From Octopus vulgaris (lineage: Eukaryota): DNA of 64,000 nt. Under the pieces are notes generated by a model. The model was not told the DNA's origin. It saw only the letters and a list, made by a program, of their open reading frames with translations, and made no database searches. This document shows, piece after piece, positions 1 to 54,100 of this stretch. The stretch covers positions 36,828,001 to 36,892,000 of the forward strand of contig OX597832.1 of the NCBI GenBank assembly GCA_951406725.2, in the 5' to 3' direction. The number at the start of each line of letters is the position of its first letter. The first letter of the stretch is position 1. Made by a program: the position numbers and the translations under genes.

Positions 1-150
1 AACATGTAGCAATAATGTATATTAACATGTGGTGTTAGTGGTAGATAACAGATAGTGATAGTAACTATGGACAGGTGATGACAGTGGTTTTCTCAACAAG
101 GTGGCAGTAATGTCTGTTAACAGTTGGTGCTGGCTTTACACTAAGCTTCA

Positions 151-183
<33 letters not shown>

Positions 184-1089
184 GAGCACCCAGTCTATCA
201 ATAATGACAGAGTTCTTGTTGAGAAAGTTACCTAATGAAACTTGATAATTAGAGGATGGGAAAATAAATAAAAATGTCAAAACAAGCGGAAAATAAGAAA
301 ATTATATTTTTCACCTGCAAAATACTATACAGGTATGATTCACTGCAGAAGTCCATGAAAAACAACAATTTTTGTATAAACATGAGGACACACTGACACT
401 CCTTAGCCTTTTGAATTTTCAGTCTGTAATTTCAAAAGGTTCCTAACCCCAACCCAAATGATGTCACTTCAGGGTGAAGGCACAGATATTGTAGTCGACT
501 GCATCCTAAAATAACATTCAAATTTCTTAGGACTATTGCAATGCTGAACAAATCATCTGAATTTATGAACATTAAAACGTTATGAGACAATGAAGGTAGC
601 AGAATGAACTTCAAATACGAAAAATAAGCAGAATTCCTGCAAATAAGTGGAGACCTTGTTTGGAAATTTAGAGAAGGATTTTTATTGGTCTTGGAAGTGT
701 TTGGGCTATAATAATGATGAACTCTCTTGTAAATGTTGCAATAGGCAGAAGATAATCAAAATTTAGGAATACTAAAACAATAGACAAGTATTAAGAAAGC
801 AGAATGAACTTTCAAATACAAAAGACAAACACTACAACTAATTAGAGATGATATTGCAGCAAAAAGTAGAAATGCTGTTGGTTAACTCAGAAAAGTTCAA
901 ATTGTTTCATTAAGGATTATGAGACAAATACAAAAAATAAACAAAACAACACTAGCTTGTGTCGACTGATTTAGAAAGCGAATTTTATAAAGTGAAACAA
1001 ATTCAACAGCTTCAAACACTAAAGTGTTACTCAAAAAAAAAGCATATATACAGAGGCATGTAGTGTATTAGATATATTGATTATTATTC

Positions 1090-4310: not shown

Positions 4311-5189
4311 GTTCAGTCAGTCATCTATTTTAGGCTACTACTGTTCTGACCTTACACCATACCTGCAACCATTCAGAACTCAAAGACCATCTTTCTTTCA
4401 GATCAAACTTTCCTGTTACGTTCAGTATGTTCTTGGATCAAAGACCTTAATTCTTTAATTAGTAAAAATCAGTTATTTTAAGTTCCAGTGACTGACCCTA
4501 ATCCAAATCTGAGACCTTTACCAATCAAAACTTAAACCATTAATCTACACACCTAATCTCAGCACTACTTTTCCTGTTTGTTGAAAAGATTATTGGCTCA
4601 AATGCGAAAACTTTTATACACAATTTATTACCAGTTCCAATGAAAGAGTATTTCTTCAACTGCTAATCTCTTCTTTATTGTTATTTTATTAATATTCTTG
4701 TTGTTTTGTAAAATCCTGATATGAAGAGTAAAAACCAAAGCTAGAATTTGGAAAAAGCATAAAAAAAAACAATGAAGATGGTCTAAAGTAAATAAAAATG
4801 CTTGAAATTGGTAAAATAAGATAAACTCCAAATAGTACACAAAATCAGAACTCAAATCTCCTCCAAACTTAACGAATCCTCTTAATTTTATGAATATTGT
4901 TTATGATTTTCAACATTTAAGTCCTGTTCATTCTTTGTAAGGTTTATTTTTTTCACTCTTGACTAATGATAGAAACAAACTAAACCATTTCAAAGATGTC
5001 TTGCAATATTTACACACACACACATACAGTTAGTGTTAATGGATCACAACTTTTTCAACATTCCTGATGTATCTTCCATTCCACAATATCATCCATAGCA
5101 ATTTAAAGCTCTTGGATAGAGCACGCCATGTTTTTTTAGCAATTGTTTGATGTAACTTTTTGCTGGTTTTCTTCTTTTCCATGTATGTG

Positions 5190-5229
<40 letters not shown>

Positions 5230-5874
5230 GACTTTTAAAATGGATGAGAACGGATCCTAAAGCAAATAAAGCTGTAGCTAACAGCTGGTAAATATTGGAT
5301 TAAAACAACCTTTCAGCAGTAAAAGTCAGTTGTCCCACAGACAGCTTTTGACTTTTTCTATTCAAAAGGATTTTAATCCAATATTAATAGCTTTATTTGC
5401 TTTGAGATTCACTGTTCCAAAAAAAAAAAAAAAAGACAAAGGTGTGTGTGTGTGATGAAGATACCCATTTAGTGTTGACTGTTGGAAGAAAGAGTACTCA
5501 ATACCATAGGAGAGATTGATAATATACTTTGGGTGATTCAGTCTCTTGCTATTCTGAGTTTTCCGTGCCTGAAGACCCTGTGCATCCATAAGCAAAACTC
5601 AGAGCAGCAACAGACTGACTTAACCAAAATAAAAATGCCTATATTTGTGGAATGGTATGTTTTCCATAACAAAGAAACACTACACAGAATTGGCTCTGAT
5701 GGAGCTGTTAGAAATTGCACTGGCACTCAACAATGGGTGCAGGATTTTTCAGCACCAAATCAGTTGTGAGCGAATGAGCATGATGTCATTCTTTTGTCAT
5801 TTGTTATTTGATATGAGTGTGTGTGTGTGTGAATGTACACACACACACACACACACATATATATACTCATATAT

Positions 5875-6030
5875 ATGGCTATGTGATTAACAAGTTCACT
5901 TCCCGGCTCTGTGGTTTTGGGTTTAGTTGCACTACATGGTGCTTTGGGTAAATGTTGTCTACTACAGACTCAGGCCAAAGAAAGCCTTGTGACTGGATCT
6001 AGTAGGAGGAAATTGAAGGAAGCCTGTTGT
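5875..6030 (+). mobile_element. tRNA-derived SINE with CORE-like centre (family S2), degenerate
   Basis: Aligns by eye to copies at 21464 and 22208 (TGGCT..GTG.TTAA.AAG head, GC..TTGGG.AA.TGT centre, GAAA.TGAA.GAAGC end). Confidence 0.7.
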
Positions 6031-6649
6031 GGGTATACATGCATGATCACACATTCTCTCATGCCCCCCTCCCCACAAATTTATTTGATGTTAATTGTTT
6101 GAGTGCCTTCCCACCATGACAATCACTTTCAATTTTGACTGTTGACAATTCCACACCTGAAGGGATGACGAATGAAAGACAATTGATATTGAACTGGAAT
6201 TCTTCCTTCGTTAGATTATCAAAGCTAATTAACAACAACAACCGTTATAACCTGCCACATCAAACCAAATATCCATCCTTGCTCTAACTGTTGTACAACA
6301 TTAACTAAAAGCTTACTAAAGCATGACCTGAATAACCTCTTTGTCTTTGTTTTACCTATTGCTATCATACTAATACCAAAACGTGTGTATTATTATCCTC
6401 GTCTGGTCTTAAAGTTGCTTCTTAACTGCTGCCTCTTCTTCCAATTCATAGCTGTATTGATAATAATAATAATAATAATAATAATACTTTTAATGATAAT
6501 GGCATTTTCCTATTATTTTAATTAACCCTTCAAACTTTGTTTTTTTCTTTTTTTTATTTTATTTTATCACATTTGTAATAAATTTGGTTTCAATAAAATA
6601 TTTTAACTTAAATGTTTTTTTTTTCTTTGTTTTATAATAATATTTATTA

Positions 6650-6685
6650 TGGTTGTTACTATTATTATTATTATTATTATTATTA

Positions 6686-6718
<33 letters not shown>

Positions 6719-6735
6719 ATTGTTATTGCTGTTGT
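6650..6735. repeat. (ATT)n microsatellite
   Basis: Directly visible; explains the poly-I/Y/L ORFs at 6612-6873. Confidence 0.95.
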
Positions 6736-6879
6736 TTTATTGTTCCTGTTGGTGGTGTTGTTATTTATGGCAATGGATTGGCAAAATCAATAGAAAATCA
6801 AAAATGCTTGCAGTTATTTGTTCTGGCTCTTTATGTTGAGAGTGGTGGGGAAGGAGTAGGTAAAAATGGTTGAGTGGCA

Positions 6880-7107
6880 GATAAAGGTAGTAGATTCAGA
6901 GATAAAGACTGCAGAGTGGTGGCTAATGACAGTAGATAAAGATAAGAGAGGGCTCAATGAAGATGGTAGAACGTTTGATAAAGACTGTCGAGTGCTCGAT
7001 AGAGATAGCAGGGTGCTAGTCAAAGACGGAGGAGTGCTCGTTAAAGACGGCTGAATGCTCAATAAAAGTGGTAGAGTGCTAGGCAGAGATGGTGGAGTAC
7101 TTGATAG
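6880..7107. repeat. Degenerate 21-bp minisatellite, consensus near GATAAAGACGGTRGAGTGCTC
   Basis: Successive units GATAAAGACTGTCGAGTGCTC, GATAGAGATAGCAGGGTGCTA, GTCAAAGACGGAGGAGTGCTC, GTTAAAGACGGCTGAATGCTC, AATAAAAGTGGTAGAGTGCTA, GGCAGAGATGGTGGAGTACTT. Confidence 0.85.
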
Positions 7108-7511
7108 AGAGTGATACTAAAGGGATAGGTAAAACACATGGTGATATTCAATTTATGCCCCTTTGGGTTCTCAGTTGAACTCCTAGAGAATTTAACTCTA
7201 CATTCTTGTTTAACCTTCCGGGATCTGTAAAGTTCCAGTCAAGTACTGAGTTGATTTAATCAGCTTTGTCCTTCATTTGAGATTATGTGAGAAATTGTGG
7301 CAGACTCTGTGACAAAACTGAAGACCTGTCTAAATGGTCGGCAGTGGTTAGTTGTAGTTGAAGTTCTACCAAAGTTTATATTTCCTTCTCAGATGAGAAC
7401 TGAGAAAATCCAGTCAAGAGTTGAGCGATATAATCCACCAAACATAGCAACACTCTCTGTAACTTTGCACCAATGCTAGATATCATCATCATCATCGTCA
7501 TTGTTATTATT

Positions 7512-46040: not shown

Positions 46041-46943
46041 GATGCTGACAGTAGGCATCATTTTGAGACAGATTAACTGAGGAATAGAAAAAAAAAATGT
46101 TACAATATATTTATTTATTTAGCTAACCTGTCTGAACAGATTTCGCTACCATTCCAAGTTGTACTTAGCTTTCCTCAAGTCCATACAATGGATCTAATGA
46201 TTTCCTGCTTCTGCTACTCCTGGTATTTCGCTGTGGTGCCCCAAGGGTGATAATAGAGCACAAAGCCAGTTGAGCTTTAAATATTTATTATCTCCCCTTT
46301 ACTGTCTTTTTTTTCCTTTTTTTCTTTTTTGTTAGGTTGTGTTGTAAGCACTGAATCTACCAATTACACATCTATTGTTTATTGATAGTGGATTTAACTT
46401 TCTATTTGTGATTGTTCCAAATATCAGTTATTCTGCTGCTGCTTACATCATGGCAAGAATATGTTCACTAAACCACAATAGCAATATTCTGACAGCACTA
46501 GTAAAAAGAACCAAAATCTTACCCCGAGAGTTAAAAAATATACAAAACATCAAGCCAGCTTCCTCCTCTCGTGTAACAACGAACTTGATTTCTTCAAAAT
46601 TTTCCATCATTTGTTGTCCTCATCTTTTTGTCAGGTTCATTCTTGTGAGGGTTTGATAAGTTTGGTTTATCAAATTAATGTATCCAAGATAATGTAGTCC
46701 TTGCATTTTTAGAATGTAAGGTATAATTTGAGGGCAATTTTGTTACTATTTTTAGCTAGTCAAGTAACCGAGTATATCCCCCCCCCCGTCTCTGCTTTAT
46801 TGGAATCATTGTTTAGCAATTAGTATCTCTTGAAGTAATGTTTCTGACATGTCAGTAACTGTAATCATAGAGATAAACAGCAGTTTATTGTATTAGCATA
46901 GCCTCATACATACTGTGTATAAGATAACCTCTTAGATACTGTA

Positions 46944-46985
<42 letters not shown>

Positions 46986-47167
46986 ATAACTATACAGATA
47001 CTGTATATAATGCAGTCTTATAGATACTGTATATACAACATAACCTCATATGTGATCTATATAATGTAGCATCAGTTGTTAAGGTGGAATATTCATAGAT
47101 ATTTTTTATATAACAACACCTCATAAATATTATATGTAACATATATATATATATATATATATATATA

Positions 47168-47582
47168 GGTGAATTGAAGAAATGGAGCTGAACGCAGATT
47201 GAACAGAAATCGTTTTATTTCATTCTACACGTGTTTCGAAAGGCACAAATTACCAAAATCCGATTGAATAATGGGACCATATTGTGTCTTTCTCTTCAGG
47301 AAGAAAAAGGAAATCCGTTAGAGAAACAAAAACAGAACAGAGCGGAGCAAAAACCAAATCGAACTGTAGAATGAAATAAAACGATTTCTGTTCAATCTGC
47401 GTTCAGCTCCATTTCTTCAATTCACCAATAATGTTTTAATTTCAATATCCGCACCAACGCAGTTGCAACGCCAGATGGTTGTACCTCCAACCGTGCTGTT
47501 TACTGCTGTGATTTTTGCTACTAAGGTATCGGTTAACTTTTGATTAATCTACAACAAGATTATTCATCTTTCTATTTCACAT
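47168..47582. mobile_element. Small Penelope-like terminal-repeat element in (TA)n with a perfect 62-bp inverted repeat
   Basis: 47168-47229 is the exact reverse complement of 47365-47426; (TA)n on both flanks; contains the hammerhead listed next. Confidence 0.85.
47218..47307 (-). ncRNA. Type I hammerhead ribozyme, apparently intact
   Basis: Minus strand: TTTTCTTC-CTGAAGA-GAAAGACACAA...TTGTGCCTTTC-GAAA-CACGTG-TA-GAATGAAA. Full CUGANGA/GAAA/UH core, stem II 10 of 11 pairs, palindromic stem III, stem I 7 of 8 pairs; predicted cut after GUA between 47226 and 47225. Confidence 0.88.
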
Positions 47583-47644
47583 AATATATATATATATATA
47601 TATATAACATAGACTTAGAGATATTGTATATAACATTACTTCAC

Positions 47645-47883
47645 TTAATCATTTAACTACAAAATTAAATTTCATGGCTATAAGGATGTTAAGAATCTAC
47701 CAAAAAAAAAAGAAATAGAAATGATATTTTCTGCAAGTCACGTTGCCTCAATAAACTTGACAAAAAATAGTTACAAACATGACATTCCTTAACAAATGAT
47801 AGAATGGTATATAAAACTGCTATCTACAGTCAAGGATGATGAAATTTTGGGAGTATATCTGATTTTTGTAGTAAAACAGTTAA
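47645..47883 (+). mobile_element. MITE family B
   Basis: TTAA at both ends; AATAGAAATGATATT.TCTGCAAGTCA shared with 56577. Confidence 0.75.
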
Positions 47884-50229
47884 AATGTGATATTGTATAT
47901 AGCATATCCTCAGTTAAGATGTGGAATTCGTAGATAATACACGTAACATATAGCAACAATTAAGAAGTATTCATGGATAATCTTGCACACCATGTGAACT
48001 TGTATAATAATATCCAAAGTTGTTCTTTGTGACACACTGTTGCTGTAGATCGGTGTTGTATGAAGGGAGTGGCACTGTTTATATTAGTACAAGACTTGTT
48101 AGTGACATGTTCTGCACAAGGTCTCAACAAGGAAATAACTTTCATTCTAGCCATTCCTAAAGTAACTCTGTTCTATTGAGATTCAACTAAGTAGGAAATA
48201 CTTATGGATTCTCTACTGAGTCTATATTGAGCTGTATGATTGTGTGTGGGGAACAGGGGTTATGGTATTTAGATTGCTATTGTTTGTAGCATCCAGTACT
48301 ACATTAACTTGGAAGGTATTGGCCCTGGATGTAGAGAGGAGTTGAGTCCACCTACACTGGTTCTTGTAGCATGTCCATCCACCGCTTGTTCTTTGATGGG
48401 TTCACAGTGAATTCAACTTGTTTAAATGCTGATGTCTGTTTCTGAATATGTCATATGAAGTTAGTGAAATAATTCAGTTTTAGCTGTGTTTTCTAGCCTC
48501 AACATCTCTCATGCTTTCTGATTAAAAGTAGAACATAACTAATTCTACTCCTTTCAATATCGACCTAGTTTTTCTGTCTCAAGTTCCACAACACCCTGTT
48601 TTAACCTTATTCTTCTTTCTCAAAATATTATTTTTCAAGCAACGTTTAAGGTTTGCTATGATTTCACTTCATGTGTTAGTTTTCTGACCATTAACAACAC
48701 CTTTACAATCTTTGTTGACAGAAACTTACAATCATTATTTTATCTAGACACTAATATATGTATTCAGGACAATTTCCTGTAAGCTTTCATATTTCTTATC
48801 CACTCTATATTCTGGGAATGGTGCAGAGTTTGTGTTAATTTTCAAGAGGTTTTTGAGGACCAACTGGATGTGTGAGAGAGAAATCTCACTTTGAATATGA
48901 CAGCAGTCTATTTTGCGTTTCCTTTCTAAAGGGTCTGTTACCTATTTTTCATAGCTTCGTAAACAAAGACATAGAATGAAGTGTAGCAGAATGAAATACC
49001 TGCACTGAAATTGAAGTGAAAATCTGTGAATAAGAATTGAACTCATGTTCCTATGATCCTAGGCTGAATTCCATTGTCTGTTTCACTAAAGTTTATTCCT
49101 TCTACCAAAGTAACAACCAAACATTCCACTATGTTTTTATATGATAACATTTAGGTGGTTGTTGTGTAATAAGTTATCGCTGCAACATTTTAAACATCAT
49201 ATTTTATCTAACTTACAGAAAGAGCATTCTTCTTGTTTCTGTCTTTCTTGCACAATTCCAGTCAATCTTCTTTGCCAGTGTCTGTAGTTCTACCCTTTCT
49301 CGATAAGCTGATAGAAAAGTTTTCTGGCATTATCTGCTATCTCTTTATGGACAAACCTGTCTTTTGTTTGCATCACAATAACTTAAGCTCCTACTTTCAC
49401 TCATTAAACATCTGTTCTACTTTCACATTTCTTTGTTTTCCCTTTCTTTGCTCATTTACTACCCTCCTCACCCCCCCCAACTCTATGGCAGTAATGTACA
49501 TACAAATGAATATATGATAAGGCCTTCACTACCACATAACAGCACATGTCCTTACCTCTGCACATTAAGGGCTCACTCCCACCCTATATTGCCAAACATT
49601 TTAACCACCACACTGCAAGTCCTCACCACCTGACTCTGCCCACATCATATCTCCTCTTCCAAGCTACAACGTATGTCTAATTGCAGCACAATTTATCACC
49701 ACTGCTACGTTATGCCACCATGCAACATGCTCTCGCTACAAAACCTTACAACATTCATGATGTGTGTAAGTTATTTATTCTCTAAAAATCATGTCAACCA
49801 CTGCACATTTATTAAACATTAAAAGGTAGTAATCTCTCATAAGTTTAGTGAAAGATGAGGATGTCAGTATAATATTGAAACATGTCTGGAGTCATCTCAT
49901 TTACTGGTTGTATGCAAGAAACGTTATTAGCCATTGATCAATAATATCTTTTCTCCTCAGTACATACTTACACTACTAGTTACTTATTTTAATGCATTAT
50001 ATTTTAAATAAGTTAATATTAACTTGCTGATGATAGAACACCTGATTTGTATGTTTATCAAACTATTGTTTTTGCTAATTAGTCCCTCCTGAATTAGCTA
50101 TTTCATTTTGTCAACTTGGCATCAGGTGTTGTATATTTATCTCATTATTTAGCCTATTATGTCTTTATTAGGTTCTCTTGCAATAAATATTAACCTCATC
50201 CAACTGATGGAAAGAGCAGTTATTATTAA

Positions 50230-52499: not shown

Positions 52500-54100
52500 T
52501 GTTGGGGAAGTATGCCAACAATGGAGATTTTCTAGGGAATTTTCAGTCCATAACTCTGCTAAACACAGATTTAGGCCAAGGTGTTCATGAAAAGGTGGCG
52601 CTTATCATCAGTAGTATGGTCAGGGAAGCACAAACGTGTGCAATTCTCAACAGGTCTATCCATGACGACCACCACCATCTTAGAGAGGGCTGGGACTAAA
52701 GCTGGCTTGGTGGGGTCTTGGTCAATGTGGATCAGTCCAAAGCATTCAATAGGGTTGATCATGGAAGCTATCCTCAAACTGGGTCGCTGCAATGCACAGC
52801 AACACCAAATTGGCAGTCAAAATAAACTGCTACCTAATAGACATATTTCATGGTCTATCAGGGCTGCCCACCGTCACCTCTTCTGTGTGTGCTGGCTCTT
52901 GAGCCACTGCTGCCTGCAGAAGTCGGAACTGTTAAGGAGCATCCCTTTCAAACTGGGAGGACAAAGGAGGGCAGTGTCAGCATGGGTGGATGACATCACT
53001 ATCATGGTGTAGGATGCATTCTAAAGAAACATGTGTTAGTTGTAGGGGTCAAAATCAACCCCAAGAAGTCAATGGGCTGGCCACTGGGTACCTGGAGAGG
53101 CAGGTCAATGCTGTCAGAGAGTGTCTGGTTTGGTCCCAATCTCCAAGTGGATAAGAACTGGGATGAGGTGATGAACAGAGTGGCCTGTCTTACCCAGAAA
53201 TGGGCAGAGAGATGGCTGTCTCTGAAAGGTTGGACAAAGGTGGAAAATACCTCCATTGTCTCCATCATCATTTATTGCCTCATCATCATGCTTTGCCCCA
53301 GTTACTGCTTGATCAGATTAGAGCCATCTCTTCTCTTCTGGTGGAAGGCACACATTCCAATGGTGAGGCAGTCAGTCTGCTGCCTGGAACAATTTCTGGA
53401 CAGTGAACATGTGTGAGCTCTATTTGTGAGGCCCATCTTTCTGCAGATCCTCTCTTTTATAGAAGTGCTGTCCTTAGTGAAGGACAGACTGAGACTGGGC
53501 GCTGGCACTTAGAATGTTGTCAGGCAGTGAGATTGGTGAATGTTCCACTCTAGCAATATATAGAGGATTAGTCATGAGGAAGTGTGCCAATGTCCTCAGG
53601 GAGATCTGGCTAGTTTGTTCAAGAGCACTTTCTGGTCGGGGACGACCATAGATAATTTCCAGATGTTCATGGCCTTCTGGTTTGAGATAAACTCTACAGG
53701 TATGGATGTGCTGTCAGACGGGCTTGTTCTACTAGGTGTGTGCAGGCTGATGAAACCATTCTGCCCTTTTGGAGTTATGTTGAACACCTACTGTCGTGTG
53801 TGGGGCAGATCCATCTATCAGCTGAGTCCATAGTGATGGTTGCTCTGCTAGCCTCCTTTAATTGGACAGGTAAATCAGATTTCCTTTGCCTGGTGGCAGT
53901 GACAAAAGAGCTCATCTGGTGTGGAAGGCATGAGAGCAAAGACATTCCTCTTTGGTTGAATGAGTGTTCAAGTTTTACTTTCAAAGGAAAGTGAGAGTAG
54001 ATAGAGAAGTGCTGTCCTTGAATGAATTCATTGAACGGTGGGTGAAAGTTGTGAAAATGGCAAGAGCAGATGGTACCGCTCTAAGTGTAGACCTGTGAAT
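52500..54100 (+). pseudogene. Decayed L1/Tx1-clade LINE ORF2 (RT and C-terminal zinc-knuckle region)
   Basis: NFQSITLLNTD, QTCAILNRSIHDD, DQSKAFNRVDH, GCPPSPLLCVLALEPLL, VSAWVDDITIMV, GVKINPKKSMG, NWDEVMNRV...KWAERWLSLKG, C.RC.QADETI; multiple frameshifts. Confidence 0.9.

What the first reader, a model, noticed from the sequence alone, without database searches (positions are those of the whole stretch)
47168..47582. Intact hammerhead ribozyme clamped by its own perfect antisense arm in a small TA-embedded element
Seen: a complete hammerhead core on the minus strand (CUGAAGA, GAAA, GUA) with a long stem II, palindromic stem III (CACGTG) and a 7/8 stem I, inside a 415-bp non-coding element flanked by (TA)n. 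The element has a mismatch-free 62-bp inverted repeat whose inner edge stops 4 nt from the predicted cut and covers the GUA triplet and the 3' strand of stem I. Established: Penelope-like elements carry minimal type I hammerheads with palindromic stem III that cleave as dimers, often show inverted terminal repeats, and non-autonomous hammerhead retroelements (retrozymes) exist. Inference: in a minus-strand transcript the upstream arm would out-compete the ribozyme fold, giving a built-in off switch or a long dsRNA (ADAR or small-RNA substrate). Perfect arms imply a recent origin, so this may be an active, possibly undescribed non-autonomous ribozyme element family.
Basis: partly seen in the sequence, partly recalled or inferred. 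Interest (0 to 1): 0.85.

Follow-up and report, generated by a model that had tools for sequence, protein, structure and literature searches.

The report
Truncated Penelope-like retroelement end with hammerhead
The hammerhead-ribozyme motif and its perfect 62-base inverted arm are real, but they are two truncated, head-to-head pieces of the tail end of a common Penelope-like jumping gene, joined at a breakpoint found only once in the genome, so the 'clamp' is likely an insertion by-product rather than a switch.

Summary
Observation confirmed; interpretation mostly not. The type I hammerhead core (minus strand, predicted cut 47226|47225) and the mismatch-free 62-bp inverted repeat are as described. 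But 47168-47582 is the 3' end of an autonomous Penelope-like element (PLE): it matches an intact 3.63-kb copy (L031; 895-aa ORF, telomerase-like RT plus GIY-YIG fold) with no substitution and three small deletions. A 34-mer occurs 1,183 times in the genome; the window's junction occurs once, and 64 of 64 two-armed loci have different junctions. Inverted 5'-truncated copies, (TA)n targets and pLTR hammerheads are published PLE traits; the protein is closest to the Hydra clade. Worth keeping: two-armed insertions pair one short end (+58..70 from the cut) with one long end (+217..221) in 46 of 46 unbiased loci, giving a ~150-nt tail (30-40 nt is typical), which fits two-site priming on uncleaved RNA. 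Cleavage and transcription of this locus are untested. The scan noted the same kind of structure before in another genome (e1-7882047).

The parts
47141..47167 (.). (TA)n target tract, left side
47168..47365 (-). Short-end (S) arm: PLE 3' region from -140 to +58 relative to the hammerhead cut, sense on minus strand; 198 nt, one 1-nt deletion against intact copy L031
47218..47306 (-). Type I hammerhead motif: stem I 5' strand 47306-47300, core CUGAAGA 47299-47293, stem II 47292-47238, GAAA 47237-47234, palindromic stem III, predicted cut 47226|47225, stem I 3' strand 47225-47218
   Evidence: cleavage inferred from the consensus, untested
47168..47229 (+). Left arm of the perfect 62-bp inverted repeat (= positions -3..+58 of the S arm)
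47350..47381 (+). 5'-to-5' junction of the two arms, 1-nt microhomology at 47365; unique in the genome
   Evidence: (1 hit with up to 1 mismatch)
47365..47582 (+). Long-end (L) arm: PLE 3' region from -3 to +217, sense on plus strand, lacks the hammerhead core; first 62 nt are the right arm of the inverted repeat (47365-47426), the remaining ~156 nt are the 'tail'
47583..47606 (.). (TA)n target tract, right side

Best explanation
The 415-bp element is one heavily 5'-truncated insertion of an autonomous Penelope-like retroelement, made of two short pieces of its 3' end joined head-to-head inside a (TA)n tract, and the inverted repeat is likely just the stretch that both pieces happen to share. 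Shown: sequence identity to an intact 3.63-kb coding copy, about a thousand related insertions, a unique junction, and two fixed 3' ends (S at +58..70, L at +217..221 from the predicted cut) paired one-of-each. Inferred: the element's RT/GIY-YIG protein nicks both strands of a TA microsatellite and primes two cDNAs on RNA from one source element, one at S and one at L; both stop early and their ends are joined by microhomology, preferentially near short palindromes such as the two inside the hammerhead; the template is mostly uncleaved RNA. The hammerhead is the ordinary pLTR ribozyme, predicted to need a partner copy or protein to cleave.
For: Window arms = L031 with 0 substitutions and 3 small deletions over 416 nt. 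L031 ORF 895 aa; 5 of 7 ORF starts examined give the full 895 aa; best structural matches TERT (Foldseek E 4.9e-9) and, for residues 774-877, the I-TevI GIY-YIG domain (Z 9.7, rmsd 2.5, 89 aligned). 34-mer: 598+585 exact hits; ORF-start 27-mer: 32 hits; 3.62-kb head-to-tail units. Junction unique; 64 of 64 junctions distinct. 46 of 46 two-armed loci in a sample of 60 are L+S; 63 LS, 1 LL, 0 SS of 64 overall. Arms of one locus differ at 0.62% of sites against 1.6% between loci. Junction overlaps in 25 of 45, 1-20 nt inserts in 16 of 45. Only 2 of 130 arms start at 0..+2. Literature: inverted 5'-truncated copy and one-sided tail (PMC8557442); both-strand nicking/extension, two RT start sites, uncleaved RNA as substrate, predicted dimer (PMC11167929).
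Against: The mechanism steps are inferred from insertion anatomy and from an in vitro study of a different clade (Poseidon). 14 of 60 loci have one arm only or a pure tandem, and one LL locus exists (L030). Both arms stop at nearly the same position more often than chance (within 10 nt in 6 of 45 against 1.4 expected), which also fits fold-back. The hotspot windows were chosen after seeing the data, and the hammerhead hotspot is not significant in the independent subfamily sample (3 vs 4, p=0.15). No Pfam family hit the ORF in the library copy held.
Confidence: 0.92

Rival explanations
1. One reading: a self-propagating non-autonomous ribozyme element whose upstream antisense arm is a built-in off switch.
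For: The arm does sequester GUA and the stem I 3' strand in the predicted fold. Three of 46 unbiased loci have a similar geometry (one arm with the hammerhead, the other starting at -25..0), and 5' junctions are enriched at -20..0 (15 vs 13 in four-fold longer flanks).
Against: Junction unique in the genome; no two of 64 loci share a junction; intact coding parent present; the arm-less RNA is not predicted to fold as a hammerhead either; an equally strong junction hotspot lies at -172..-156, far from the ribozyme.
Confidence: 0.02
2. Same identity (truncated PLE insertion), but the second arm arises by self-priming/fold-back at palindromes or by later gene conversion between arms, not by a second target-primed cDNA.
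For: Junctions enriched at palindromes of 6 bp or more (24 of 91 vs 12.8 expected, p=0.0008); symmetric junctions in excess; arms more alike within than between loci. Self-priming was proposed for rotifer Penelopes on the same grounds (PMC3846280, passages).
Against: A fold-back copy must lie within the first arm, yet either arm can be the longer one (e.g. L068 S -627 / L +136; L109 S -56 / L -2239), and some arm pairs do not overlap at all (L +134 to +189). Fold-back does not explain why the second arm ends at a different fixed site abutting (TA)n.
Confidence: 0.2
3. The insertion is a by-product but has an incidental effect: read-through RNA across it forms a 62-bp perfect hairpin that is edited by ADAR or diced.
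For: Predicted hairpin of -159 kcal/mol overall; hundreds of such inverted pairs exist.
Against: No evidence that this locus is transcribed; nothing singles it out, as most family insertions carry equal or longer inverted repeats.
Confidence: 0.1

Closest known systems
Hydra-clade C-terminal EN+ Penelope-like elements (Craig et al. 2021, PMC8557442; e.g. Hydra-1_Obim, Penelope-13_HM)
   Same: Single RT + C-terminal GIY-YIG ORF; DKT motif; CxxC before the conserved E and CxH after the conserved N; no CCHH; (TA)n targets; hammerhead near the 3' end with a tiny stem III; Penelope-13_HM is listed with a 5'-truncated inverted copy and a hammerhead on both strands. RT motifs match the published alignment by eye.
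   Different: RWK reads RWL; the CxCX5C linker is absent (present in 63 of 106 homologs); unit is 3.63 kb rather than under 3 kb because of two disordered inserts; hammerhead sequence and its much longer stem II differ from all listed Hydra motifs, including Hydra-1_Obim.
Minimal/atypical type I hammerheads of metazoan PLEs (Cervera & De la Pena 2014, PMC4209133)
   Same: Intact core, long helix II, short palindromic helix III, located in the pLTR; that paper already notes pairs of motifs 100-700 bp apart on opposite strands and solitary motifs from truncated PLEs.
   Different: No extra unpaired nucleotide between A9 and G10.1 here; stem II is ~55 nt.
Poseidon from Anolis (PAc; Frangieh et al. 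2024, PMC11167929)
   Same: Two fixed insertion ends separated by a 'tail'; AT-rich target; uncleaved RNA as the apparent template.
   Different: There both start sites lie inside the ORF and the tail is described as 30-40 bp; here both lie upstream of the ATG of the next unit and are about 150-160 nt apart.
Non-LTR retrozymes (bioRxiv 10.64898/2026.07.22.740005; PMC7229834 seen in listing only)
   Same: Non-coding, type I hammerhead, PLE-derived.
   Different: No short head-to-tail hammerhead tandem and no re-amplified monomer here; the only tandems are 3.6-kb coding units.

Membership tests
Penelope-like element (C-terminal EN+) | Single ORF with telomerase-like RT | tested here: met
   895-aa ORF in L031, YRDD; top Foldseek and VIA matches are TERTs
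Penelope-like element (C-terminal EN+) | C-terminal GIY-YIG endonuclease | tested here: met
   Residues 774-877 match I-TevI catalytic domain, Z 9.7, rmsd 2.5, 89 aligned; Atlas clusters named GIY-YIG at 0.94-0.95
Penelope-like element (C-terminal EN+) | Partial tandems forming pLTRs; 5' truncation; inverted 5'-truncated copy | tested here: met
   L094, L103, L118, L121 tandems; 46 of 60 loci two-armed and inverted
Penelope-like element (C-terminal EN+) | [quoted passage not shown] | tested here: met
   One-sided tail present, but about 150-160 nt long
Penelope-like element (C-terminal EN+) | Hammerhead motif in the pLTR | tested here: met
   77 motifs extracted from 60 loci, L031 and the window (the search required the core, so this does not measure core conservation)
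Hydra clade | DKG changed to DKT; CxxC and CxH around the conserved E and N; CCHH absent | tested here: met
   DKT, CNLCVSE, CPH
Hydra clade | N-terminal RWK motif | tested here: inconclusive
   RWL at the aligned column; RWK/RWR in 66 of 106 homologs
Hydra clade | CxCX5C linker between RT and EN | tested here: not met
   Reads GCRSRNEYS in all 6 ORFs long enough to show it; motif in 63 of 106 homologs. Hence filed as Hydra-like, not as a formal member
Hydra clade | (TA)n insertion preference | tested here: met
   Nearly all terminal arm ends abut (TA)n; 417 S-end and 517 L-end forward-strand hits followed by TA repeats
Hydra clade | Placement in the RT tree with reference PLE clades | not tested
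   Reference proteins were seen in a supplement only and compared by eye
Non-LTR retrozyme | Short non-coding head-to-tail tandem units each with a type I hammerhead | tested here: not met
   Pairs are head-to-head; tandem spacing is 3.62 kb and coding
Non-autonomous element family | Dispersed copies sharing one internal structure | tested here: not met
   1 hit for the junction; 64 of 64 junctions distinct
Type I hammerhead ribozyme | Conserved core CUGANGA / GAAA / NUH with three stems | tested here: met
Type I hammerhead ribozyme | Match to an Rfam hammerhead model | tested here: inconclusive
   No hammerhead family listed at gathering or E<=10
Type I hammerhead ribozyme | Self-cleavage | not testable with these tools
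   Needs in vitro assay or RNA 5'-end data

The most novel reading that the evidence does not exclude
This recently active Hydra-like PLE family obeys a near-strict 'one short end + one long end' rule: each insertion is built from two cDNAs primed at two fixed RNA sites about 150-160 nt apart on opposite strands of a TA tract, from one source RNA, with the uncut hammerhead and other palindromes acting as joining or stall points. With about a thousand insertions and intact ORFs it would be a genome-scale in vivo read-out of the two-site, dimer-based PLE integration step, with a tail four times the textbook length and (TA)n targeting despite loss of the linker zinc finger proposed to mediate it.
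Probability: 0.5. Interest if true: 0.5.

Novelty: new member of a known kind. Interest (0 to 1): 0.24.

Why it matters
As found, it matters little: a truncated inverted PLE end is ordinary. The family behind it has some value. How PLEs make their tandem/inverted insertions is stated as open (PMC8557442; PMC11167929). This family offers intact ORFs, two well-separated fixed ends and hundreds of clean junctions, so the two-site priming model, the role of the hammerhead, and the proposed link between the linker motif and (TA)n targeting become directly testable.

Tried and rejected
Rfam, whole window at gathering and 46900-47900 at E<=10: no hammerhead family; the miRNA hit reflects the hairpin only. 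Pfam on the intact ORF, eight window ORFs and three homologs: no family. PDB sequence search with an 8-sequence profile: 0 hits. Sequencing runs: no RNA holder listed (19 of 24 rows hold part of the stretch, none on record as RNA); contigs of four guessed-RNA runs laid on a tandem junction showed no joints and cannot show ends, strand or circles, so cleavage, circular RNA and expression stay open. A second fold of the endonuclease domain alone was submitted and not collected, as answered the question. Genome-wide S/L-end patterns over-count on the reverse strand because of the variable gap; only forward counts are used. Rejected: cleaved RNA as main template (2 of 130 arms start at 0..+2; the window's L arm starts 3-4 nt upstream of the cut); segmental duplication (left flank single-copy); correlation of the two arms' lengths overall (Spearman 0.15, p=0.31). 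Earlier-findings search by sequence: nothing. PMC9977147 passages added nothing specific.

Full report
OBSERVATION. On the minus strand CUGAAGA lies at 47299-47293 and GAAACACGUGUA at 47237-47226, so the predicted cut is 47226|47225. Stem II folds at -13.0 kcal/mol, stem I has 7 bp with a bulged U, and the stem III strand ACACGUGU is self-complementary. The inverted repeat is perfect over exactly 62 bp, 47168-47229 and 47365-47426, with (TA)n on both sides. Rfam lists no hammerhead family here; that is inconclusive for a motif with a 55-nt stem II.

WHAT IT IS. A DNA search of the window's own genome (2.8 Gb) gave 1,935 candidates, 40 scored. Following copies upstream led to L031, with an open 895-aa frame (4754-7438) followed by a 3' region containing the hammerhead. 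Its model (mean pLDDT 80.6, 107-sequence alignment) matches telomerase RTs best and, at residues 774-877, the GIY-YIG domain of I-TevI. The window element is two pieces of this 3' region: -140..+58 on the minus strand and -3..+217 on the plus strand (positions from the cut), with no substitution and three deletions of 1, 1 and 2 nt. The 62-bp repeat is the overlap of the two pieces (-3..+58). An internal 34-mer has 598+585 exact matches, the ORF-start 27-mer has 32, and the window's own subfamily marker has 21. Of 7 ORF starts examined, 5 give 895 aa, one 763 aa and one 32 aa. Head-to-tail units are spaced 3.62 kb.

IS THE CLAMP SHARED? No. The 32-mer across the junction has one match in the genome with up to one mismatch allowed. 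I fetched 60 of the 61 clusters formed by the first 100 listed 34-mer hits (all on contig C1). 46 are two-armed and head-to-head, 7 show only a short-end arm, 6 only a long-end arm, 1 is a pure tandem. Over all loci held with an adjacent junction (including the similarity-biased first search, duplicates merged by hand), 64 loci give 64 different junctions. In 30 of the 46, one arm holds a whole hammerhead and the other covers the cut; in 19 both hold it; 3 resemble the window. Zero differences between arms is common (13 of 35 loci, window included). The arm-less RNA is not predicted to adopt the hammerhead fold either (-13.5 vs MFE -16.3 kcal/mol).

HOW IT LIKELY WORKS. Shown: arm 3' ends fall in two classes, S (+58..+70; 53 arms) and L (+217/+221; 50 of 52 arms), nearly all followed by (TA)n unless they run on into the next tandem unit; genome-wide forward-strand counts are 417 and 517. 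All 46 unbiased two-armed loci pair one S with one L, though the anchor 34-mer lies in both arm types; overall 63 LS, 1 LL, 0 SS. Either arm can be the longer. Arms within a locus differ at 60 of 9,667 sites (0.62%) against 1.6% between loci. Junctions overlap by 1-10 nt in 25 of 45, carry 1-20 extra nt in 16, longer inserts in 4. Among 130 arm starts, 15 fall at -20..0 and 16 at -172..-156, each above flanks, and 24 of 91 lie at palindromes of 6 bp or more against 12.8 expected; these windows were post hoc, and the -20..0 excess is not significant in the 26-arm subfamily sample. Only 2 of 130 start at 0..+2. Inferred: both strands of a TA tract are nicked, two cDNAs are primed at S and L on RNA from one source, mostly uncleaved, and their ends are joined by microhomology. 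This follows the in vitro results for Poseidon (both strands cut and extended, two start sites bounding the tail, uncleaved RNA used, predicted dimer; PMC11167929, parts 1-2 of 4 read). Fold-back self-priming (PMC3846280, passages) is the main rival; it fits the palindromes and the excess of symmetric junctions (6 of 45 vs 1.4) but not non-nested arms.

COMPARISON. Inverted 5'-truncated copies, one-sided tails of 30-40 bp and pLTR hammerheads are described PLE traits (PMC8557442: passages, section 11, supplement part 2 and searches; PMC8969392, passages). Opposite-strand hammerhead pairs 100-700 bp apart were noted in PMC4209133 (parts 1-2 of 4), which also reports low in vitro activity for such motifs. 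The protein carries Hydra-clade marks (DKT, CxxC, CxH, no CCHH, (TA)n) but lacks the CxCX5C linker and is longer, so I call it Hydra-like; no tree was built. It is not Hydra-1_Obim (different hammerhead and protein). The 106 homologs found are 27-43% identical by local alignment. It is not a retrozyme as defined in bioRxiv 10.64898/2026.07.22.740005 (part 1 of 5; its supplements are closed).

NOVELTY. Six paper searches showed no description of this family, of a ~150-nt tail or of a counted one-S-one-L rule; subscription papers and Repbase entries are outside the library, and the published 'tail at one end only' is the same rule in words. Verdict: real feature, ordinary origin, new member of a known kind; interest 0.24, mostly for the family as a test case of PLE integration.

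Noticed in passing
window 46884-47138 and 47595-47632: A degenerate 26-bp minisatellite runs on both sides of the element; the insertion sits in a TA tract inside it and the left flank is single-copy.
   Followed up: partly
L031 4754-7438, residues ~755-775: The CxCX5C linker of Hydra-clade proteins is degenerate in this family, yet (TA)n targeting is strict; this argues against the linker being needed for TA targeting.
   Followed up: partly
L031 ORF residues 497-557 and 633-763: Two disordered S/N/T-rich in-frame inserts (pLDDT<50) absent or shorter in homologs, resembling the N-rich inserts reported for rotifer Penelopes.
   Followed up: no
L069 and L118: Two L arms begin exactly at +62, i.e. 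at the S site, as if the L cDNA stopped where the S primer sat.
   Followed up: no
L011 and L114: Mirror junctions: S -167 / L +19 in one, S +19 / L -167 in the other, suggesting sequence-determined joining points.
   Followed up: no
L075 708-984: An older relative (80% identical) of the hammerhead region lies next to a young insertion.
   Followed up: no
window 52575-53416 (+): Two overlapping open frames with an RT-like 'WVDDIT' motif (motif recalled), probably a decayed LINE; no Pfam hit.
   Followed up: partly
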